From IMG/VR virus record IMGVR_UViG_3300042343_001141, positions 1 to 38,376 of that record: 38,376 nt of DNA, one strand, 5' to 3'. Both the position numbers and the translations under genes were made by a program. Shown piece after piece: positions 25,204 through 38,376 of the stretch (position 1 is its first letter; every line of letters starts with the position of its first letter). Source of the DNA: a virus. Lineage: Duplodnaviria; Caudoviricetes. The notes under the pieces were generated by a model. The model searched no databases, was not told where the DNA came from, and saw only the letters and a program-made list of their open reading frames with translations.

Positions 25204-26325
25204 GTGCGCTATATCTTCATCCTCCTTCTGCTGGCAATGCCAGCTCAAGCGTATGCACTAGACAGCACAGACCAGTGGGACCAGCAGGTTGACTCCAACG
25301 GAACAATCACGCTGACCGATGGCACAATCTTAATTGAAGGCAGCAATAATGCTGGGCCTGGATACCCGTGGCAGAACACGGTCACCAGCCTGACGACTAG
25401 TTCGTCCATTGGCGAGACGGTTACCTTTGACTGGTCATATTGGACGACCGATGGTGCCTTCTACGATCGAGCACAAATGCTTCTCGATGAGAGCTGGATT
25501 GATCTCGCGATCTGGGATCAGGGCGGTTACGACCCGAAGCAACAGAGCGGCACGCAATTGGTTTACATTGCCGCAGGGGGGATCTTTGGGTTTCGCATCT
25601 TGAGCGTTGACTCGTGCTGCGGCGCGGGCTTCCTGCAAGTCACAAACACAACCTGGGTTGTGGGCCCGGCCCCAACCCCAACACCGGAGCCATCTGTTGA
25701 TCCATCTCCAGAGCCGAGCCCAACGCCAGAGCCTACGCCCGAACCGACGCCAACGCCGGAACCTTCGCCGACGCCTGAGCCAACTCCGGAGCCTACGCCA
25801 GAGCCAACTCCTGATCCAACTCCTGAACCGACTCCAGAGCCTGAGCCCTCGGTAGAGCCAGAGCCAGAGCCAAGTGAAGAACCAGAGCCGACTCCCGAGC
25901 CCGAAGAGACGCCCGAGCCAGAGCCTTCAGAGGAACCTGAACCGAGTCCTGATCCTACTGACGAGCCTAGCCCTGAGCCTGAGCCTAGCGTTGAGCCTTC
26001 TCCTGAGCCAACTGACGAACTGCCAAGTGTAGAAGAAGCGGTTGAGGCAATTTCGGAAGCATTTGGAGAGGCGGCAGAACAGGTTGCCGAAGTATTCGGC
26101 GAATCATTTGAAGCGATATTAAATATTGGAGAGATCGGAAAGGACTTAGACCCCGAGGAGAAAGAGGAGGCGCAACCTATCGCGGTTGCGGTGGTCATTA
26201 GCCAAGTCGCAAGCGCTGCGGTATCTGCAGCAATGGCGAGGGCCGGTGGCACAGGAGGAGGGGGTCCAGTAGGTGGGCCATCATCTTCATCCAGCTCTTC
26301 TAGCAGAAAGGGGAACAAGTCTTGA
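25204..26325 (+). CDS. Exported/membrane protein with Pro-Glu/Thr repeat stalk (373 aa)
   Basis: Signal peptide [18 protein letters not shown], beta domain with a CC pair, long (EPTP/EPSP)n tract, hydrophobic C-terminal helix. Confidence 0.8.
25665..26015 (+). repeat. Low-complexity coding repeat (PEPTP/PEPSE)n
   Basis: Repeated gagcc(a/t/g) units visible in the DNA and in the translation. Confidence 0.85.
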
Positions 26326-26492: not shown

Positions 26493-27107
26493 ATGAAATT
26501 CAAGGTGAAGAGTCAGCTCGATCACGTAGAAAAGGGCGGCATCTTAGACGATTGCGGCCCGAGTTCTGCGTCGGCTGCCTTGGCCTGGGCGGCGAAGTAC
26601 CTCATCGACCCGAGTGCCGGAGACGGCATCAGGGCGAAGGCTAAAGCCACAGGCTTTGTTGAGAAGGAGGGAGTGAGCGACAACGGTTCATCGCTGGGCG
26701 ACCTCATCAAGACTGTCAAGGTCCTTGGTGGAAGCGCTCGATATGCGAAGTCATGGGACGATGTCGTTCTCTCAGCGCACCGTGGAGCAGGACTCATTAT
26801 TTGGGTCCAGCAGGCTGTCGGGTATCCCGATGTCGAGATCAGTGAATGGCACAAGAAGTGGCAGAAGTACTGGCAGACCAAGGGACCGAAGCACATTAAG
26901 GAAGGCTACGGCCACATGACTGCGGCAGGGTGGGCTGCTGTAGACGGGTGGCAATGGGCCTGCCCAACACGTTCTGGTAAGGGCAAGGAGAAGTTCGGCG
27001 TGAAGGTAACCGAGGATCAGCTCAAGCAGATTGCTGACTCCAAGCGCGTTGCCGGCAAGGACAATGGGGCCCCGCACAAGCATGTTGTCATTGTCGAATA
27101 CAAATAG
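26493..27107 (+). CDS. C39-like cysteine peptidase, probable endolysin (204 aa)
   Basis: SQLD...DCGPSSASAAL (Gln and catalytic Cys) and GHMTAAG (His); next to a holin-like gene. Confidence 0.7.
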   Translation: MKFKVKSQLDHVEKGGILDDCGPSSASAALAWAAKYLIDPSAGDGIRAKAKATGFVEKEGVSDNGSSLGDLIKTVKVLGGSARYAKSWDDVVLSAHRGAGLIIWVQQAVGYPDVEISEWHKKWQKYWQTKGPKHIKEGYGHMTAAGWAAVDGWQWACPTRSGKGKEKFGVKVTEDQLKQIADSKRVAGKDNGAPHKHVVIVEYK

Positions 27108-27534: not shown

Positions 27535-28287
27535 ATGACGTTTACTGTTGCTCAGGCCCTGAACGAGTACATCAGGTCCACATCCAAGCCACGTCAACCT
27601 GACGGGATGTGGCACCCATCCGGCCTGTACGGCTGTGATCGCAAGACCATCTACGAGGTCAGGGGCACTGCCCCGACCGACGACCGGGACGACCGTAGCT
27701 ACCGCATCCTTGAGGTTGGGCAGATCATGCACGACTTCATCCAGGGTGCGTTGAAGCACTCGAATACCTACGTGGCCCAGGCGTGGGACGAGGTTAAGAT
27801 TAACGCTGCCGACATTAAACTTGTTGGCTCAGTCGATATGCTTGTGCAGCACCACGACAAATCGTACGAGGTGCTTGAGTTCAAGACGATCAACAGTTAT
27901 GCATTCAAGTACAAGGAGCTCCCAAAGGAAGAGCACGTCGGACAGGTGCAGGCGTACCTTCATGGGCTTCGTTACTACGGCGGCATCGTCAACGAAGGAA
28001 CGCCGCAAGAGCACGCCATCGAGCCACTTGGTTCGGACCTTACCAAGGCCCGAATCATCTATGTCTCGAAGGATGATATGATGATGGAGGAGTACCCGGT
28101 CGAGTGGACTGCCGAGGGCGACGCTGACCTGATCTCCCGCATCAATCGGTTGGAGTCGCACCAGTCTTCTGGCACCTTGCCAGAGCGGCTCAAGCCGGAG
28201 GTTAAGAAGGGTAAGCTGCAGCGCAACTGGCTCTGCGGATATTGCCAATTCCAGACAAAGTGCTGGGATGAAGACAAGGAGGCATGA
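27535..28287 (+). CDS. Cas4-like PD-(D/E)xK exonuclease (250 aa)
   Basis: HPS...CDRK, G..MH, GSVD...LEFKT, Q...Y and C-terminal CGYCQFQTKC (1+3 Cys arrangement). Confidence 0.88.
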   Translation: MTFTVAQALNEYIRSTSKPRQPDGMWHPSGLYGCDRKTIYEVRGTAPTDDRDDRSYRILEVGQIMHDFIQGALKHSNTYVAQAWDEVKINAADIKLVGSVDMLVQHHDKSYEVLEFKTINSYAFKYKELPKEEHVGQVQAYLHGLRYYGGIVNEGTPQEHAIEPLGSDLTKARIIYVSKDDMMMEEYPVEWTAEGDADLISRINRLESHQSSGTLPERLKPEVKKGKLQRNWLCGYCQFQTKCWDEDKEA

Positions 28288-28868
28288 ACATGGCAGACGA
28301 TCGACTCAGTAATTACATCGAGGTCAAGGACCGGGTGGCAGAGTTCTTCAAGCGATACCCAGACGGAAGCATCCAGACAGAGATTGCTTCGCTCTCGGAT
28401 AAGTTGGTGGTGGTCCGCGCCTATGCGTACCGCAGCCCAGAAGATGCGCGACCTGGAGTAGACTACAGCTCGCTCGAGATCCCTGGAAAGACTGGGTTCA
28501 CGAGAGGCTCAGAGCTTGAGAATGCGGCTACCTCTGCGGTGGGACGTGCGCTATCTCTTGGTCTTGGTATCGCAGCGCACCGTGGCATCGCCTCCAAGGA
28601 GGAGGTCGCAGTGAAGCAGGCGCAGGGTGAGGCGAAGGCCGCCTCTTCGACCGGCAAGCTGGCTACTGACGCCATGAAGCGCATGGTGTTTGCAGAGGCA
28701 AAGAAGCAGGGCCTTGGCGAAGAGCAGATCAAGGCGCTGTTTGCGTTGGTGGCAGGGACTCCTTCAAGCGAGGGCCTGAGCTATCAGCACGTCGACATCA
28801 TCCTTGAGGAGCTGAAGACGAAGGGCACGCGGTTCCAACTCGCATCTGATACGGCCAAGGTCGGCTGA
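28284..28868 (+). CDS. Putative ssDNA-annealing recombinase (194 aa)
   Basis: YIEVKDRV..F...YPDGSIQTE and LENAATSAVGRAL; lies between the exonuclease and the helicase. Confidence 0.7.
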   Translation: MNMADDRLSNYIEVKDRVAEFFKRYPDGSIQTEIASLSDKLVVVRAYAYRSPEDARPGVDYSSLEIPGKTGFTRGSELENAATSAVGRALSLGLGIAAHRGIASKEEVAVKQAQGEAKAASSTGKLATDAMKRMVFAEAKKQGLGEEQIKALFALVAGTPSSEGLSYQHVDIILEELKTKGTRFQLASDTAKVG

Positions 28869-33392: not shown

Positions 33393-33501
33393 TTCTCCGG
33401 TTTCCTCATGGGCCCGAAGAAACCATGACCTCGTCATCTTCTTCTGTGGTCAGGTCACCGCGTTGGTCCTGTTTGCAGTGGCGATGGCGTTGACAAAATG
33501 A
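33367..33501 (+). CDS. Small single-TM protein (44 aa, absent from the ORF track)
   Basis: GGAGGGG SD. MPINPTKTSSPVSSWARRNHDLVIFFCGQVTALVLFAVAMALTK; ATGA overlap with the next gene. Confidence 0.65.
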   Translation: MPINPTKTSSPVSSWARRNHDLVIFFCGQVTALVLFAVAMALTK

Positions 33502-33722
33502 AATGCCCGGCATGCGGAGGGCGAGAGTATCGACGACACCGGACTCCGGTGGAGGTCAGCAACGTGATCTACCGTCGGCACGAGTGCCTAAACTGGAGGT
33601 GCGGCACAATCTTCATCAGCATGCAGCAAGCACTGAGCGAGGAGATGGTCGAGGTCCTGGCCGAGGCCTTCGAGATTGCGACGACGCAGACCTCTTCTTC
33701 CGAGGAGACGCAGAGCGACTAG
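33498..33722 (+). CDS. Ogr/Delta- or NrdR-like zinc-ribbon protein, possible transcription regulator (74 aa)
   Basis: MKCPACG...YRRHECLNWRCGTIF. Confidence 0.7.
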   Translation: MKCPACGGREYRRHRTPVEVSNVIYRRHECLNWRCGTIFISMQQALSEEMVEVLAEAFEIATTQTSSSEETQSD

Positions 33723-33863: not shown

Positions 33864-33896
33864 AAAAAGGCCCCAGGTCATACGACCTGGGGCCTT
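33864..33896 (-). terminator. Terminator at the convergence of the two arms
   Basis: aaggccccaggtc-atac-gacctggggcctt, 13-bp stem, with the U-tract on the minus strand. May act in both directions. Confidence 0.85.
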
Positions 33897-33928
33897 CGTA
33901 CAGGGGAGAACGACCCTGTTGGTGAATA

Positions 33929-34177
33929 CTAGAACGGAAAGACCTCATCCGACAAGGCCCTGACCGGGCCTGTTTTCGCTTGCTTCAACCCCTGTGCCAT
34001 CGCAACAGCACACGCGACCCATCCCTCGGCCCACGCTGCCTTCTCCGGGTCATCACCATGGATGTCACCCTCGACTGAGCGGATCGTCTTGATGATCTCC
34101 TTGACGGTCTGCTCGTAGGCAATTGCGTTGGCCTCGTGCCTGCGTAGAGACTCCAGTTCAGACTTCAAAATCTTCAT
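33929..34177 (-). CDS. Hypothetical protein (MKILKSELE...)
   Basis: Start moved to ATG 34177, which follows a GGGGAGG SD. Confidence 0.7.
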   Translation of the reverse strand: MKILKSELESLRRHEANAIAYEQTVKEIIKTIRSVEGDIHGDDPEKAAWAEGWVACAVAMAQGLKQAKTGPVRALSDEVFPF

Positions 34178-34463
34178 CGTAGCCTCCCCGCTCGGCCGGG
34201 ATAAAGGGGTCGCCGCACGCAATGCGGAGGATCGAGCCATAGGCCCGGCCATCCTGCACGTCAATTGCAACGAGGCCCTCACATGCGAGACAGTCACCGA
34301 CTAGGTCGGTTTCCATCTCCGGGTTGCGCGTGAGGTACGGCACGAAGTGCCCCTTGTCACGGAGCTCCTTGCTCGTGGTGCTCCACAATGCGTAAAGCTC
34401 CGACCTCAGGTCGCAGGTCCTGTTTGGGTATATCGCCGGGGGTGAATCCCCCTGCGTCCTCAC
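34158..34463 (-). CDS. Hypothetical protein (101 aa)
   Basis: GTG start overlapping the upstream TAG; contains CxxC; fills the operon gap. Confidence 0.6.
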   Translation of the reverse strand: MRTQGDSPPAIYPNRTCDLRSELYALWSTTSKELRDKGHFVPYLTRNPEMETDLVGDCLACEGLVAIDVQDGRAYGSILRIACGDPFIPAERGGYDEDFEV

Positions 34464-34726
34464 TACTGGATCCTCGCGAAGCGGTCGATGGCCTTGAACG
34501 CGTCGCCATATGACGAGACGTAGCCAACGGCCGACTCACGAGTCTCCGGATTAACGACCTCATAACGCATTGGCTGCCCCATCCCGGTGTCCCGGATCTG
34601 GTAGTGGCAGCCGTGCGCTGAACCGGTGAATACCACCGGCTCAAAGTGGCAGTCGACTCCGCACGTGATGCAGATGCCGTCCTCCCAGTGTGGATTGTGC
34701 TCTATTCCCCTATCAATGCAGTTCAT
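34463..34726 (-). CDS. Hypothetical Cys/His-containing protein (87 aa)
   Basis: AAGGAGG SD, CITC motif, downstream of an internal promoter. Confidence 0.7.
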   Translation of the reverse strand: MNCIDRGIEHNPHWEDGICITCGVDCHFEPVVFTGSAHGCHYQIRDTGMGQPMRYEVVNPETRESAVGYVSSYGDAFKAIDRFARIQ

Positions 34727-34766
34727 GTTCTCCTCCTTACTGCAAACTACTTGCCATTGCCACTAA

Positions 34767-34795
34767 AAGATACACCGCGTAGGCCATAAGTGCAA
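34767..34795 (-). promoter_or_regulatory. Internal sigma70-type promoter
   Basis: Minus strand reads TTGCAC, 17-bp spacer, TATCTT in a 77-bp intergenic gap. Confidence 0.7.
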
Positions 34796-34803
34796 CCATG
34801 ATC

Positions 34804-35448
34804 TTACTCTGCATGAGGATCGACTCCTTCTACGCAGTTTGTGCAGATCAGTTCATCGCCCACCTTGACCGGAGGCACACAGTCCTCCGGGACATACGCA
34901 ATGCCGCACTTGCTGCAACCATACGGCTCAAGGCTGAGAAGAAGGTCTTCAAAGTCCTTGACCCGGTGTTGCGGCACGAAGATTGATACGCCCGAAGCAA
35001 ACAGATTGCTCGTGCGATCGACCGCGAAGGCCACGTCAAAGGGCAGAAGTTCTGCCTCCCACGCGTACTTGATCTTCTCGGCAATGCCGTCAATCTTGGA
35101 GCCCTCGCCCCACAGATTCACGCCTTCGGCCACCTCGTGCCACCCCTCAAGGGTGGTCACGAAGTACCCGCGCCATGCATCCGTGCGTGTGTAGGTCCGG
35201 TTGAACCGGGCCCACTGTTCACGAGGGAGCTCCTCGTAGTACTCGCCGTCAACAATCCAGTTGGAGCCGATAAGGTACCGGTCCTCCTCCTTGCCGGGCT
35301 TGTACACCGTGACCACAGAGGCAGACTCAATGTCCGACTCAAAGCAGCCCCAGCAGTATTCTGCATTGCGCAGTTCAGACCAACGGCCACCGTCGCCGGA
35401 GTCCGTGTCAAAGGTGCTCTCGCACCCGAAGCACTTGACTTCGCTCAT
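34804..35448 (-). CDS. Hypothetical protein with four CxxC motifs (214 aa)
   Basis: CFGC, CWGC, CSKC, CTNC; central Y.RTDAWRGY motif; ATGA coupling. Confidence 0.8.
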   Translation of the reverse strand: MSEVKCFGCESTFDTDSGDGGRWSELRNAEYCWGCFESDIESASVVTVYKPGKEEDRYLIGSNWIVDGEYYEELPREQWARFNRTYTRTDAWRGYFVTTLEGWHEVAEGVNLWGEGSKIDGIAEKIKYAWEAELLPFDVAFAVDRTSNLFASGVSIFVPQHRVKDFEDLLLSLEPYGCSKCGIAYVPEDCVPPVKVGDELICTNCVEGVDPHAE

Positions 35449-35729
35449 GATTGGCCACCCTTCTTACTCTTCTTCTTGGGGTTCTCAATCTCGTACACGG
35501 CAGCCTTCACGCTACGCGACACGAGTTCATCGTGGCACGTCTCGCATAGTCCGGTGTACCAGAGTCCATCAAGGTCTGGCATGCCGCACTCCTTGCACGG
35601 ATTGTCTTCTGCCTCCTCAACGACCTTCTTCTCCAACGCCTCAGCGATGGCCTTGTTGGTCTTGTCGCTTGCGCCGATCACCACGATCTCAAACCCCAGT
35701 GCCGGCACGTTCAGTTTCCTTGTGCTCAT
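35445..35729 (-). CDS. Hypothetical zinc-finger protein (94 aa)
   Basis: AAGGAGG SD; CKEC...CETC; basic C-terminus. Confidence 0.75.
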   Translation of the reverse strand: MSTRKLNVPALGFEIVVIGASDKTNKAIAEALEKKVVEEAEDNPCKECGMPDLDGLWYTGLCETCHDELVSRSVKAAVYEIENPKKKSKKGGQS

Positions 35730-35824
35730 CAGAGCACCTCCTTCCCTAGTCCACTTAGAATCAAGGCCGCGAAGATAATCAACGCTAGTAGCCTCATGCG
35801 CTTTGTGTCCTGTTCATACTCCAT
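35729..35824 (-). CDS. Small single-TM peptide (31 aa, absent from the ORF track)
   Basis: AGGGGAG SD directly after ribozyme HHR1. MEYEQDTKRMRLLALIIFAALILSGLGKEVL; TGATG coupling to the next gene. Confidence 0.65.
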   Translation of the reverse strand: MEYEQDTKRMRLLALIIFAALILSGLGKEVL

Positions 35825-35849: not shown

Positions 35850-35908
35850 GTCTGCCTCATCAGCCCCGGGAGACTATCCCCGGAGGACGCCCCGAAGGGC
35901 GTTTCGGC
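35850..35908 (-). ncRNA. Type II hammerhead ribozyme HHR1
   Basis: Minus strand: gcc GAAA cgccc-uucg-gggc GUC / cuccggg-gauagucu-cccgggg CUGAUGA ggc agac. Loop GUCU pairs with tail AGAC. Predicted cut 35886/35885. Confidence 0.93.
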
Positions 35909-36135
35909 TACCAGACTTCGCTCTTCTTGGCCTGGCTCTTCTCAGCGTAGTGAGCACGCAGCCGCGCGTCAATCCTGATCTTGATCTCTTCGCCAATCAC
36001 CCACCCGGTAACGATCGCGCCGACCGTACCGAAGAGGACCAGAACCGAGAGCCCAAGGTGGCCATACACGGCGTACGCCACCGCTGCTGCCACTGTGGCG
36101 AGCAGGTATGTTGCGATAAACTCCTTCACGTTCAA
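35908..36135 (-). CDS. Two-TM membrane protein (75 aa)
   Basis: GGAGG SD, TTG start, two hydrophobic helices; its TAG runs into HHR1. Confidence 0.75.
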   Translation of the reverse strand: MNVKEFIATYLLATVAAAVAYAVYGHLGLSVLVLFGTVGAIVTGWVIGEEIKIRIDARLRAHYAEKSQAKKSEVW

Positions 36136-36404
36136 ACCTCCATCTCTTGCATGCGGGCCGCGTACTCCACGCTGCCCTTCGTGCCTTCCTTGACCTCGTA
36201 CCGGGACGGCACGTAATTGCCCCAGTAGTCGGTGTGGCCCTCCTCGCCAAGGATGCAGATCCCTGCCTCAATGGCGTACGCGGCCGCGCGTCCCACCGAT
36301 CCCTGCATGCGCCATGCCTGACCGGTGTCAATCAACTCCTGCAACGCTTCAACCGGATCAGCGGCCTCTTCGCGCAGGTACTTGAGCGTGTTCTCCGTGA
36401 ACAT
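36132..36404 (-). CDS. Conserved phage hypothetical protein (90 aa)
   Basis: AGGAG SD after HHR2; QELIDTGQAWRMQGSVGRAA is a motif seen in small early phage proteins. Confidence 0.8.
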   Translation of the reverse strand: MFTENTLKYLREEAADPVEALQELIDTGQAWRMQGSVGRAAAYAIEAGICILGEEGHTDYWGNYVPSRYEVKEGTKGSVEYAARMQEMEV

Positions 36405-36426
36405 GTTCTCTCCTGTTCTCGTGAGG

Positions 36427-36483
36427 GTCTGCCTCGTCAGTGCCGGGAGACTATCCCCGGCATACGCCTCGCGGCGTTTCGGC
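36427..36483 (-). ncRNA. Type II hammerhead ribozyme HHR2
   Basis: gcc GAAA cgcc-gcga-ggc GUA / ugccggg-gauagucu-cccggca CUGACGA ggc agac. Predicted cut 36463/36462. Confidence 0.93.
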
Positions 36484-36683
36484 TATTGGTACACCCCGGT
36501 CCCGTTGCACCCGCACGCTCCTTCGTCGCACATTGCGCCTTCAGAGAGCAGCATGGCGCAGCCATACTTTTCTGCGCGGTGCTCCTCGTGCTCCTCGCAA
36601 TACCACTTAATCTCACCGCTCTCGTTGTTGTCCGAGTAGTAAGCGGCCTCTTCGCCGCACCTACCGCACCTGTTATCCGTCAT
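36483..36683 (-). CDS. Small Cys-rich protein (66 aa)
   Basis: AAGGAGG SD; CGRC...CEEH...CDEGACGC; its TAG runs into HHR2. Confidence 0.72.
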   Translation of the reverse strand: MTDNRCGRCGEEAAYYSDNNESGEIKWYCEEHEEHRAEKYGCAMLLSEGAMCDEGACGCNGTGVYQ

Positions 36684-36701
36684 CCCTCTATCCTCCTTCA
36701 G

Positions 36702-36905
36702 CTATTCTCCGTCGTGGATTCTGAGCCTGATAGGATCCTGCGCGTGCTTCTTGCAAAGGGCCACCGTAAGATTCTCATCCTTCCTCTTGAACTCAAGCAC
36801 AAAGAGGCCCTTCTTGCCGACCATCTCGTCGCATCCGGCATCGTCTGCGTTCAGGCCTTGGCACCTCCACGCGCTCGCGCTTAGGTCAATCACGATATCT
36901 GCCAT
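36702..36905 (-). CDS. Hypothetical protein (MADIVIDL..., 67 aa)
   Basis: Start moved to ATG 36905 behind AGGAGG; C...C...CKKH possible Zn site. Confidence 0.72.
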   Translation of the reverse strand: MADIVIDLSASAWRCQGLNADDAGCDEMVGKKGLFVLEFKRKDENLTVALCKKHAQDPIRLRIHDGE

Positions 36906-36919
36906 GTTCTCCTCCTGTA

Positions 36920-36982
36920 TCGCCTGCCTCATCAGTCCCGGGTGGCGACTCCGGGAGACGGCCCTGTCACGGCCGTTTCGGC
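36920..36982 (-). ncRNA. Type II hammerhead ribozyme HHR3
   Basis: gcc GAAA cggcc-gugacag-ggcc GUC / ucccgg-agucgccac-ccggga CUGAUGA ggc a ggcga. Loop UCGCC pairs with tail GGCGA. Predicted cut 36957/36956. Confidence 0.93.
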
Positions 36983-37269
36983 TATCTCAATGCCTGCTCA
37001 GCCTGTGCGACCTTGATCTCAAGGCCCACCGGCCAATGGTAGCCACCCTCGTAGGCTTTTTCAAGACTCTGAATGAACTCCTGTACATAAGCGTCGTACG
37101 CCATGTCGTCGTTGGTGTGGCGCGATACGGTGAGCCCTGCCTGCAGCAGGTCAACCTCGTACGGCGCATCGCTCTCGCGAGAAGTCCGGTAGATCACGTC
37201 CACGCCATGCTCGTCGCGTAGGTTCTGGATCCGGTCCCATAGAGCCTGTCCCGGCCTGTATCTGCTCAC
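36982..37269 (-). CDS. Hypothetical protein (95 aa)
   Basis: Start moved to GTG 37269 behind AGGAGG; its TAG runs into HHR3. Confidence 0.72.
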   Translation of the reverse strand: MSRYRPGQALWDRIQNLRDEHGVDVIYRTSRESDAPYEVDLLQAGLTVSRHTNDDMAYDAYVQEFIQSLEKAYEGGYHWPVGLEIKVAQAEQALR

Positions 37270-37286
37270 TTTGCTACCTCCTGTAT

Positions 37287-37362
37287 TCACCTGCCTCATC
37301 AGGCCGGGTAGGTGAGTCCCCGGCGACCGGTGCTGAAGGGTTGCCTATGCACCGGTTTCGGC
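37287..37362 (-). ncRNA. Type II hammerhead ribozyme HHR4
   Basis: gcc GAAA ccggugc-(15 nt)-gcaccg GUC / gccggg-gacucaccua-cccggc CUGAUGA ggc agguga. Loop UCACCU pairs with tail AGGUGA. Predicted cut 37325/37324. Confidence 0.93.
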
Positions 37363-37610
37363 TAGATGAAGTCCTGCCTGCCGATCGTGACCTCAAAGAA
37401 GCACGAACTGCAGAACTCCACGGTTTCTTTGCGTCCGTTCGCACCCTCCACGATGCACTCGTGCTGGATGCCGCCCGGTCGCTGAACGTATCCCCGGCTC
37501 ATGCAGCGTTCGCAGTTTCCGGGCGAGGCCTTGCTATGGGCTGTGCTCGTGAAACTCCTGTCCTCAGGTACGCGGACGATGATCTCCGGGATCCTCTTGA
37601 CTGCCTTCAT
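37362..37610 (-). CDS. Hypothetical zinc-finger protein (82 aa)
   Basis: AGGAGG SD after HHR5; CERC...CSSC; its TAG runs into HHR4. Confidence 0.75.
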   Translation of the reverse strand: MKAVKRIPEIIVRVPEDRSFTSTAHSKASPGNCERCMSRGYVQRPGGIQHECIVEGANGRKETVEFCSSCFFEVTIGRQDFI

Positions 37611-37620
37611 GCGACCTCCT

Positions 37621-37696
37621 GCCCCATGTCCTCATCAGCCGGAGTGGGGGGCTCTCCACGCCGGGACCGGCACGCCCGAAGGCGCACCGGTTTCGG
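37621..37696 (-). ncRNA. Type II hammerhead ribozyme HHR5
   Basis: cc GAAA ccggugcgcc-uucg-ggcgugccg GUC / ccgg-c-gugg-agagcccc-ccac-u-ccgg CUGAUGA gg acau ggggc. Loop GCCCC pairs with tail GGGGC; stem II is only 2 bp. Predicted cut 37665/37664. Confidence 0.87.
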
Positions 37697-37853
37697 TTGG
37701 AGGTCTGTTCTGTATTCACCTGTTCAGGGACTCTGGCCGGCTCCCCGGTGGCCTCTTGGATCTGGGCTCTCCGGTCACCCCGGCTCCCTCGTCCTCACTG
37801 GCCCCGGTGCTCTCGCTCTGCTTGCGGCGATTCGCACCGGTTCGTCTGCGTCA

Positions 37854-37883
37854 AGAATGCACCCTGCGAATAGGCCACGTCAA
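37854..37883 (-). promoter_or_regulatory. Candidate sigma70 promoter of the ribozyme-containing early operon
   Basis: Minus strand reads TTGACG, 18-bp spacer, CATTCT. The spacer shares tggccta...ggtg with the promoter at 34767-34795. Confidence 0.55.
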
Positions 37884-37884
37884 G

Positions 37885-38376
37885 GTAAGAGATCTTAACA
37901 ATTGCGTAACAATCATGCTCGCTGTAACACTGGAAGGATAAGGTCTCTTAACAATCCAGTGGTCGTGCTCAGCCCGGTGTGAGCGTGGCTTGGTGTGAGG
38001 ATGGCTCAGGTTCATGGGCTGAATGTGAGGACCTCTCACGTGGCTGTGGCGGGCTGCCGGTGGGCGTGGGGGGTGTATCCTCAGGTCCCACGATCAGCAC
38101 TGGCACTGGCCACCACCATGGGCCAAAGGCCCCTGCACCACAGCAACCACCCCCACCCGGACAGAGGTTGCCCTGCGCTGCATGCTCCCCCCCTGTATCC
38201 CTCGTGGACTGAGCACGTGGTGGGGGGGGGTATGCCCATATCCAAGGTGCCCCCGGATGGGGCAGCGAGGTTATGTGCGCGCGTCGGGGGGGTTACACCC
38301 CCCCTCACACCCGGGCCCAATAGGTGTCCAAGGCATTGTTAAGCTGCGCTAACCATTTCTTTACCACACAGATTGG
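37885..38376. other. Non-coding control/terminal region with short direct repeats and G/C homopolymer tracts
   Basis: No credible ORF; TAACA repeats, ggtgtgag..tggct repeats, a G9 tract and a G7-TTACA-C7 inverted repeat. Confidence 0.55.

What the first reader, a model, noticed from the sequence alone, without database searches (positions are those of the whole stretch)
35850..37696. Five hammerhead ribozymes punctuate the phage early operon (self-processing polycistronic mRNA)
Seen: five intergenic elements on the coding (minus) strand each have the full hammerhead core in type II order: C-GAAA, stem III, GUC or GUA, stem I, CUGAYGA-G. Core nucleotides are kept (variation only at the tolerant positions), while stems I and III differ in sequence and length yet still pair. 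Established: this core defines self-cleaving hammerheads, which leave 5'-OH and 2',3'-cyclic phosphate ends. Hammerheads have been reported in phages and prophages, but their function there is largely unknown. Inference: cuts at 37665, 37325, 36957, 36463 and 35886 give RNAs of about 340, 368, 494 and 577 nt carrying 1, 1, 2 and 2 ORFs, plus a distal fragment. This would be a protein-free analogue of T7 early mRNA processing by RNase III.
Basis: partly seen in the sequence, partly recalled or inferred. Interest (0 to 1): 0.97.

Follow-up and report, generated by a model that had tools for sequence, protein, structure and literature searches.

The report
Hammerhead-bordered swappable phage gene cassettes
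A lake phage carries five hammerhead self-cutting RNA motifs between the small genes of one likely early operon, where they would cut the message into hairpin-capped pieces as already described for prophages in 2011, and close relatives have exchanged the genes mostly at these motifs, which likely double as recombination borders.

Summary
Confirmed. Five type II hammerheads lie on the minus strand at the stated cut sites (Rfam finds 4 of 5; a structure scan finds all five and none in 100 shuffles). Each has the loop I/3'-tail pseudoknot and sits 51-61 nt before a start codon; the four inner ones begin with the upstream gene's UAG stop. Cleavage is inferred, not shown. Clustered hammerheads cutting prophage messages were published and tested in 2011 (PMC3088659); unrelated phages carry 7-9, and this scan noted such arrays before in at least 24 other genomes. 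So the system is a new member of a known kind. Two additions: (1) a relative about 90-94% identical and collinear over 32.6 kb has six ribozymes and different genes, lake-water contigs show further swaps, and a distant phage (terminase 33%) shares one cassette at 91%; 8 of 11 homology ends fall in ribozyme modules. This resembles T4 PeSL shuffling, but plain gene-boundary mosaicism is not excluded. (2) The first ribozyme would release a conserved, covarying ~184-nt leader RNA with no Rfam match. Interest moderate.

The parts
37854..37883 (-). Promoter-like site (TTGACG, 18 nt, CATTCT); inferred start near 37848
   Evidence: Not found by the strict consensus scan; a TTGACA/G hexamer 17-19 nt before a -10-like hexamer sits at the same place in the window, G010, L160, G009, L203 and G005, less clearly in G001
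37665..37848 (-). Structured non-coding leader RNA (~184 nt with HH1 stem III) that HH1 would release; irregular hairpin with a GGUGA pentaloop at about 37745-37800
   Evidence: Folding z -3.2, 3 of 200 shuffles as stable; 59 of 60 cells paired and 5 of 10 pairs with double changes in 6 sequences; no Rfam match
37621..37696 (-). HH1, type II hammerhead, cut after 37665; 2-bp stem II; pseudoknot GCCCC/GGGGC directly before the SD at 37615-37620
   Evidence: not matched by Rfam in the window
37362..37610 (-). Cassette A ORF, 82 aa, Cys-rich, unknown; replaced by 727 other nt in contigs of two runs
37287..37364 (-). HH2, begins with the UAG of ORF A, cut after 37325; pseudoknot UCACCU/AGGUGA
   Evidence: (34.1 bits)
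36982..37269 (-). Cassette B ORF, 95 aa (GTG start), unknown; found behind other genes in G010 and L166
36919..36984 (-). HH3, begins with the UAG of ORF B, cut after 36957; pseudoknot GUCGCC/GGCGAU
   Evidence: (57.6 bits)
36483..36905 (-). Cassette C: ORFs 36702-36905 (67 aa) and 36483-36683 (66 aa); absent from G010
36427..36485 (-). HH4, begins with a UAG, GUA cut after 36463, CUGACGA core; pseudoknot GUCU/AGAC
   Evidence: (49.1 bits)
35908..36404 (-). Cassette E: ORFs 36132-36404 (90 aa, phrog_3908, DUF7417 just under its cut-off) and 35908-36129 (73 aa, hydrophobic); shared at 90.7% nt with distant phage G005
35850..35910 (-). HH5, begins with a UAG, cut after 35886; pseudoknot GUCU/AGAC
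   Evidence: (61.4 bits)
33929..35824 (-). Distal block of about seven small unknown ORFs without ribozymes (distal RNA about 2020 nt)
33866..33897 (-). Intrinsic-terminator-like hairpin (14 pairs, U tail) closing the operon
27535..28868 (+). Likely recombination pair elsewhere in the genome: Cas4-like/PD-(D/E)XK exonuclease (27535-28287) and a protein with a Rad52/Sak-like fold (28284-28868)
   Evidence: model pLDDT 87.9; best Foldseek rows Sak, Mgm101, RAD52, E 0.005-0.04, none at 0.001; VIA Z 7.8, rmsd 3.7, 94 aligned to Rad52, tied with dsRBD folds at Z 7.0-7.2; G009 has an Erf-like annealing protein beside the same exonuclease

Best explanation
Five pseudoknotted type II hammerhead motifs sit between the small genes of one minus-strand operon, likely early, and would cut its transcript into a leader RNA, four short mRNAs and a distal mRNA with hairpins at the new ends, while at the DNA level the repeated motifs likely serve as borders at which gene cassettes are exchanged. 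Shown by sequence: each inner module reads stop codon (UAG, whose G is the first pair of stem II) - GAAA - stem III - GUH cut - stem I - CUGAYGA - stem II - pseudoknot strand - SD - start, with 51-61 nt from cut to start. From established chemistry: the upstream piece would end in the stem III hairpin with a 2',3'-cyclic phosphate, the downstream piece would begin with a 5'-OH in the first pair of stem I, and only a 2-3 bp stem II joins the two, so they would part and not re-ligate. Inferred: both ends resist the usual decay entry routes, so each cassette becomes an independent, long-lived, efficiently translated mRNA whatever its neighbours are. Because each module supplies the stop of one gene and the whole 5' UTR of the next, a crossover in the shared 10-18 nt words (likely by the phage's own annealing protein and exonuclease; inferred) gives a working product, as proposed for PeSL cassettes of T4-type phages.
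For: Ribozymes. Pseudoknot: 24 of 24 distinct loop/tail pairs in the clade form 4 or more pairs, mean 4.9 against 3.7 with tails permuted, 0 of 5000 permutations reach it; PMC3088659 shows this pseudoknot is needed for fast cleavage (passages). Stop fusion: 4 of 4 inner modules in the window; TAG-CC-GAAA in 23 of 25 inner modules of the clade (L162 duplicates left out); in IMG/VR at large 67 of 86 distinct matches have the stop of an ORF of 45 or more codons 2-9 nt before the motif, against 2.9% of random nearby positions. Cut-to-start distance 50-62 nt in 33 of 33 rows. Arrays of this kind cleave in vitro and in E. coli (PMC3088659 section 6). A 5'-OH product is not recognised by E. coli RNases and lasts longer (PMC3664830 passage). 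Turnover: G010 is collinear with the window from 3843 to 36488 (89.7 and 93.6%) but has six ribozymes and different cassettes; G005 shares only cassette E (604 nt, 90.7%, both ends in ribozymes) while terminase and DnaB are 33% and 32% identical; 8 of 11 homology-block ends lie in modules covering 23% of the array; contigs of runs X20 and X22 replace exactly ORF A (37367-37613), X16 and X19 show a joint skipping 368 nt (the length of cassette B), X13 has 201 extra nt at the SD of HH2; the same stem III occurs with unrelated stems I and the reverse.
Against: No cleavage or expression was measured. Single-strand folding without pseudoknots keeps stem III in 5 of 5 but stem I only in HH4; in the four others an alternative pairing is the minimum, and for the 3' products stem I is the minimum in 2 of 5, so some copies may misfold. 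RNase J1 can start decay from a 5'-OH end (glmS; PMC3997798 passages) and the host is unknown, so stabilisation is not certain. Most gene borders in the array are ribozymes, so junctions there are also expected from selection for whole genes; junctions also occur away from ribozymes (36679 at the border of the two C genes, inside ORF 36483-36683, in the leader and promoter; 8 of 20 positions; 3 of 11), and the ribozyme-free distal block differs in G005, L162 and L203. Junction events are not independent, and some joints may come from other phages that share only a ribozyme. The annealing-protein assignment rests on a middling fold match.
Confidence: 0.6

Rival explanations
1. The ribozymes only process RNA; gene swaps fall on them because they fill the gene borders of a region that is variable anyway (ordinary phage mosaicism with selection for intact genes).
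For: One recurrent junction (36679, runs X20 and X22) is at a ribozyme-free gene border; distal genes without ribozymes also differ among more distant relatives; exact words shared between modules are only 7-18 nt.
Against: Between the window and G010 the ribozyme-free distal genes and about 32.6 kb of other genes stay collinear while four blocks end within the array; chimeric ribozymes place crossovers inside the motif itself; a joint of exactly one unit length is seen in two runs.
Confidence: 0.3
2. Cleavage is a timer that destroys or uncouples early messages: the 5'-OH is an entry for RNase J as in glmS, so early genes are expressed only briefly.
For: RNase J1 degrades glmS mRNA from the ribozyme-made 5'-OH (PMC3997798 passages); major head protein relatives among cultured phages infect Streptomyces and Bacillus, all under 60% identical, the 15 listed at 28-31%.
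Against: The new 5' end is the first pair of stem I, with no unpaired leader; strong SD sequences follow at a fixed distance, which suits lasting translation.
Confidence: 0.15
3. Cleavage is gated by translation: a ribosome terminating at the fused UAG would cover stem II, GAAA and part of stem III, so the cut reports the translation state of the upstream gene.
For: The stop codon overlaps stem II in 4 of 4 inner modules and 23 of 25 in the clade.
Against: In other phages the stop lies anywhere from 2 to 9 nt before the motif; tight packing alone can explain the overlap; no ligand-binding insert is evident.
Confidence: 0.15
4. The released units are ligated into circular RNAs or move as RNA (retrozyme-like).
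For: Tandem same-strand ribozymes give 5'-OH/cyclic-phosphate monomers, the substrate of RtcB-type ligases (established chemistry); PMC3088659 names this possibility.
Against: PMC3088659 could not detect spliced or circular products; no RtcB match in 0 of 5 records, two of them complete (a host enzyme remains possible); no reverse transcriptase among the proteins scanned (not every ORF was scanned).
Confidence: 0.05
5. The elements are integron-like DNA hairpin sites for a site-specific recombinase and the ribozyme likeness is incidental.
For: Cassette-like layout and turnover.
Against: All catalytic nucleotides and a covarying pseudoknot are kept on one strand; no tyrosine (PF00589) or serine (PF00239) recombinase in 0 of 5 records, two complete; crossovers fall at several places in the module.
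Confidence: 0.03

Closest known systems
Clustered hammerheads flanking genes in prophages (Perreault et al. 2011, PMC3088659; section 6 read in full, other passages)
   Same: Type II architecture, short stem II, loop I/3'-tail pseudoknot, several ribozymes flanking single genes or short blocks whose identities are not constant, proposed processing into gene-length mRNAs
   Different: Tested examples are triples in prophages of Clostridium, Azorhizobium and Agrobacterium; here five in a lake phage with no integrase found in complete relatives. The fused stop codon, the fixed spacing to the SD, strain-level swaps at the ribozymes and a released leader RNA are not in the section and passages read; its supplements were not read.
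Rfam RF02276 Hammerhead_II
   Same: 4 of 5 copies match the full model, 3 above the gathering score
   Different: HH1 has a longer, interrupted stem I and a 2-bp stem II with a linker and is missed; HH2 has a long stem III and falls below the cut-off
PeSL regulatory cassettes of T4-type phages (Arbiol et al. 2010, PMC2839356; abstract and section 16 read)
   Same: Repeated expression signals flank ORFans in a hypervariable region; close relatives differ by insertion, deletion and replacement at these repeats; chimeric repeats
   Different: PeSLs are promoter plus terminator stem-loop with about 100 bp of conserved sequence and shown mini-circles; here the repeat is a ribozyme plus SD under one promoter, shared words are 7-18 nt, and circles were not tested
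Theta (HDV-like) ribozymes of gut phages (Kienbeck et al. 2024, PMC10879173; passages)
   Same: A phage ribozyme placed to define the 3' end of a structured RNA, as HH1 would for the leader
   Different: HDV fold and tRNA substrate there; hammerhead and an unclassified leader RNA here
RNase III processing of T7 early mRNA (recalled, no call)
   Same: One early transcript cut between genes at structured sites
   Different: Needs a host protein and leaves 5'-phosphate/3'-OH ends; hammerheads need none and leave 5'-OH/cyclic phosphate

Membership tests
Type II hammerhead ribozyme (RF02276) | Core CUGANGA, GAAA and NUH in type II order with stems I and III closed | tested here: met
   5 of 5
Type II hammerhead ribozyme (RF02276) | Covariance-model score above the gathering threshold | tested here: inconclusive
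   3 of 5 above, 1 below (34.1 bits), HH1 not matched; the first ribozyme of relative G001 is above (39.1)
Type II hammerhead ribozyme (RF02276) | Loop I / 3'-tail pseudoknot | tested here: met
   4-6 pairs in 5 of 5; cognate over permuted pairs, 0 of 5000
Type II hammerhead ribozyme (RF02276) | Mg2+-dependent self-cleavage after NUH | not testable with these tools
   needs in vitro transcription or raw RNA reads
Clustered phage hammerheads (Perreault 2011) | Several same-strand ribozymes flanking single genes or short blocks in a phage operon | tested here: met
   terminase, portal and major head protein in the window
Clustered phage hammerheads (Perreault 2011) | Flanked genes not constant | tested here: met
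PeSL-type shuffling cassette | Gene gains, losses and replacements between close relatives map to the repeats | tested here: met
   8 of 11 block ends; 12 of 20 junction positions, counted by hand
PeSL-type shuffling cassette | Each repeat holds a promoter and a terminator stem-loop | tested here: not met
   no promoter-like or terminator-like site in the modules; it may work like a PeSL but is not one
PeSL-type shuffling cassette | Excised DNA mini-circles | not testable with these tools
   only assembled contigs were available
Integron cassette array | Tyrosine integrase | tested here: inconclusive
   0 of 5 records match PF00589, two complete; the window's own record is rated 69% complete
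Retrozyme / ribozyme-bearing circular RNA | Circular RNA intermediate, long terminal repeats | not testable with these tools
   no RNA reads; modules share only short words

The most novel reading that the evidence does not exclude
The hammerhead module is a self-contained genetic part (stop codon, scissors, two end caps and a ribosome site) that doubles as a recombination border, making the early operon a plug-and-play array whose gene cassettes move between strains and between distant phages; and the first ribozyme exists to release an undescribed structured phage RNA (GGUGA-loop leader), which is lost together with it in G005.
Probability: 0.4. Interest if true: 0.65.

Novelty: new member of a known kind. 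Interest (0 to 1): 0.42.

Why it matters
Why bacteria and phages keep self-cleaving ribozymes is still open (PMC6765202 passages; PMC13725137 passage). This array does not change what is known to exist, but it offers a compact test bed: five natural modules in a fixed stop-ribozyme-SD layout, with natural variants that swap either the genes or halves of the ribozyme. If the modules both insulate expression and guide recombination, this explains why the genes beside phage ribozymes are so inconstant, and shows a natural form of the ribozyme insulators used in synthetic biology. The conserved leader is a candidate new RNA family.

Tried and rejected
No RNA holder listed for the stretch; the two runs labelled RNA-Seq are marked probably DNA and are contigs only, so they say nothing on expression, strand or ends. 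Function of the cargo proteins: 11 of 12 operon ORFs have no PHROG and the one hit is of unknown function; Pfam gave nothing above a cut-off for 11 tested; the Atlas gave only scores under 0.8 for ORF B. Host not identified: cultured phages match the major head protein weakly, the array DNA matches 4 phage records over one ribozyme only, the lysin's Atlas neighbours span several phyla, and none of the 60 GTDB loci holds the leader motif. The annealing-protein candidate had no sequence match in the PDB and only 1 of 87 alignment members each hit RecT-like or Erf-like PHROGs. The strict promoter scan missed the proposed promoter and found one site inside ORF B, no more than chance. Per-module folding z-scores were weak (-1.0 to -2.0). 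One search included one sequence in the wrong orientation and was not used; the alignment was redone. The leader was compared by eye with hairpin, twister-sister and pistol motifs (recalled) and does not fit; Rfam gives no match; a pattern scan found no leader homologues beyond the four records already held. PMC5785228 (ribozymes in bacterial 3' UTRs) is not held. Earlier scan notes had no look-alike of this stretch or of the leader.
Full report
Observation. The window is a 38.4-kb tailed-phage record (terminase, portal, major head protein, DnaB, primase on the plus strand), held by lake-water metagenomes (22 runs with half or more of the words, 20 after leaving out two possible sources). Its right end carries a minus-strand block of small unknown ORFs closed by a terminator-like hairpin at 33897-33866. 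Rfam RF02276 matches four elements in this block (61.4, 57.6, 49.1 and 34.1 bits; gathering score 37) and nothing else in the window at E up to 1. A structure scan finds five, with cut nucleotides at 37665, 37325, 36957, 36463 and 35886, none on the other strand and none in 100 shuffles.

Anatomy. Every copy has the pseudoknot between loop I and the 3' tail that PMC3088659 found necessary for fast cleavage (passages). Across 31 ribozymes of this phage clade, 24 of 24 distinct loop/tail pairs form at least 4 pairs and 15 of 24 at least 5; permuting tails lowers the mean from 4.9 to 3.7 and 0 of 5000 permutations reach the observed value (the rows are related, so this is not a probability). The four inner copies start with the UAG of the gene before them, its G being the first pair of stem II; 23 of 25 inner copies in the clade begin TAG-CC-GAAA, one TGA-GCC and one has no stop there. 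The cut lies 50-62 nt before the next start codon in 33 of 33 rows. The design is general: a pattern scan of 20 of 64 parts of IMG/VR gave 129 loci; of 86 distinct matches with enough upstream DNA (from the first 80 loci), 67 have an ORF's stop 2-9 nt before the motif against 2.9% at random positions, and 81 of 115 structured matches have an SD and start within 60 nt. A promoter-like site is kept upstream in six of seven relatives compared, though the strict scan does not list it; 'early' is an inference from this and from the layout.

Mechanism. That hammerheads leave a 2',3'-cyclic phosphate and a 5'-OH is established. In the type II order the upstream product keeps stem III as a 3' hairpin, the downstream product starts in stem I, and only a 2-3 bp stem II holds them together. 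I infer that each cassette becomes a separate mRNA capped at both ends. A 5'-OH product is longer-lived in E. coli (PMC3664830 passage), but RNase J1 can degrade from a 5'-OH (PMC3997798 passages) and the host is unknown. Pseudoknot-free folding puts stem I in the minimum-energy structure of only 1 of 5 full modules and 2 of 5 downstream products, so activity may differ among copies. No cleavage or expression was measured.

Cassette turnover. G010 is collinear with the window from 3843 to 36488 (two fetched pieces, 89.7% and 93.6%) yet has six ribozymes: leader, A, two new genes, a new gene followed by B, then E and the distal block; cassette C is gone. L160/L162, L166, G005, G001, G009 and L203/G011 show other orders built partly from the same cassettes. 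G005 shares only cassette E with this operon (604 nt, 90.7%, both ends inside ribozymes, plus 119 nt of a distal gene at 72%) while its terminase and DnaB are 33% and 32% identical, which points to horizontal transfer of the cassette. Of eight loci compared, four gave cargo-anchored blocks; 8 of their 11 internal ends lie in ribozyme modules, which cover 23% of the array; two misses are 2 and 20 nt outside HH3's module and one is in the distal block. In public DNA runs a 4.9-kb contig (X20) with 2-6 other letters per piece replaces exactly ORF A by 727 nt and carries another gene in place of the first C gene, and X22 shows the same joints; X16 and X19 show a joint skipping 368 nt, the length of cassette B, with the letters between not known; X13 has 201 extra nt at the SD of HH2. 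By hand count 12 of the 20 junction positions listed are in modules; the other 8 include a ribozyme-free gene border (36679), the second C gene, the leader and the promoter. Identical stems III occur with unrelated stems I and the reverse, so crossovers also fall inside the motif. Modules share exact words of 7-18 nt. The genome has a Cas4-like exonuclease beside a protein whose model resembles Rad52/Sak (middling scores), and G009 has an Erf-like annealing protein there; no tyrosine or serine recombinase and no RtcB was found in five records, two complete. Selection for whole genes in a variable region is a serious rival, because most gene borders in the array are ribozymes.

Leader RNA. Between the promoter-like site and HH1 lies a non-coding stretch kept in six records of four distinct types. 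It folds better than 197 of 200 shuffles; a hairpin with a GGUGA loop has 59 of 60 cells paired and double changes in 5 of 10 pairs, while slid registers pair 19-47% (six related sequences, structure derived from them). Rfam has no match. G005 lacks both the leader and the first ribozyme. HH1 would release it as an RNA of about 184 nt. Its function is open; a stable small RNA acting on a host protein is my guess, not a finding.

What is known. PMC3088659 (section 6) reports multiple hammerheads flanking single genes or short blocks in prophages, notes that the genes are not constant, proposes processing into gene-length mRNAs, and shows cleavage for three arrays in vitro and one in E. coli. 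PMC6765202 (passages) repeats the proposal and calls the purpose undefined. Larger arrays exist: 9 in G006, 7 in G008; 10 of 60 GTDB loci hold three or four cores within about 6 kb. The scan's own notes list 24 such findings in other genomes, seen after my own comparisons. Shuffling of genes at repeated expression signals is described for T4-type PeSLs (PMC2839356). I found no paper giving ribozymes that role in four full-text searches (listings only), but the library lacks most subscription papers and I did not read the supplements of PMC3088659.

Verdict. A real and clean array, a new member of a kind known since 2011. The strain-level evidence for exchange at ribozyme borders and the unclassified leader RNA raise it above a routine example. 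Interest 0.42; the most novel reading has probability 0.4 and would deserve 0.65.

Noticed in passing
window 37697-37848 (-): Conserved, covarying leader RNA with a GGUGA pentaloop and no Rfam match; present in G010, L160, G001, G009, L203/G011, absent from G005 together with the first ribozyme.
   Followed up: partly
window 37710-37722 and 37281-37293 (-): The leader holds a 13-nt word identical to the 3' tail of HH2 (the AGGUGA pseudoknot strand and its flanks); the word is conserved in the leaders of relatives. It could be a ribozyme relic or a recombination word.
   Followed up: no
window 27535-28868 (+): Cas4-like exonuclease beside a PF27148-family protein whose model resembles Rad52/Sak with a Red-beta-like C-terminal domain (Z 6.1); relative G009 has an Erf-like protein at this place.
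   Followed up: partly
L196:1077-7043 (G006): Nine type II hammerheads in one operon of an unrelated high-GC phage, most preceded by TGA-GCC; the first two have identical stem I and tail.
   Followed up: partly
L197:1345-6114 (G008): Seven hammerheads; one flanked gene resembles window ORF 36132-36404 (46% over 37 aa), so cargo families recur across unrelated arrays.
   Followed up: no
window 33498-33722 (+): Ogr/Delta- or NrdR-like zinc-finger protein (weak Pfam hits) near the end of the plus-strand block that converges on the array's terminator; possible transcription regulator.
   Followed up: no
window 25204-26325 (+): 373-aa protein with a signal-like start and a long Pro/Glu/Thr repeat; its region and the neighbouring C39-like peptidase (26493-27107) are shared with distant G005 at about 70% nt (peptidase 84% aa).
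   Followed up: no
window 37950-38376: Gene-free G/C-run-rich end upstream of the promoter, variable among strains (many small indels); possibly origin or terminal region.
   Followed up: no
L157:1201-1836 (-strand reading): A near-identical hammerhead in an unrelated contig lies upstream of an ORF that looks like a tyrosine recombinase by eye (not scanned).
   Followed up: no
L211-L270: TAG-fused type II hammerheads occur in GTDB records of Clostridia, Streptomyces, Chloroflexota and others; 10 of 60 loci hold three or four cores.
   Followed up: partly
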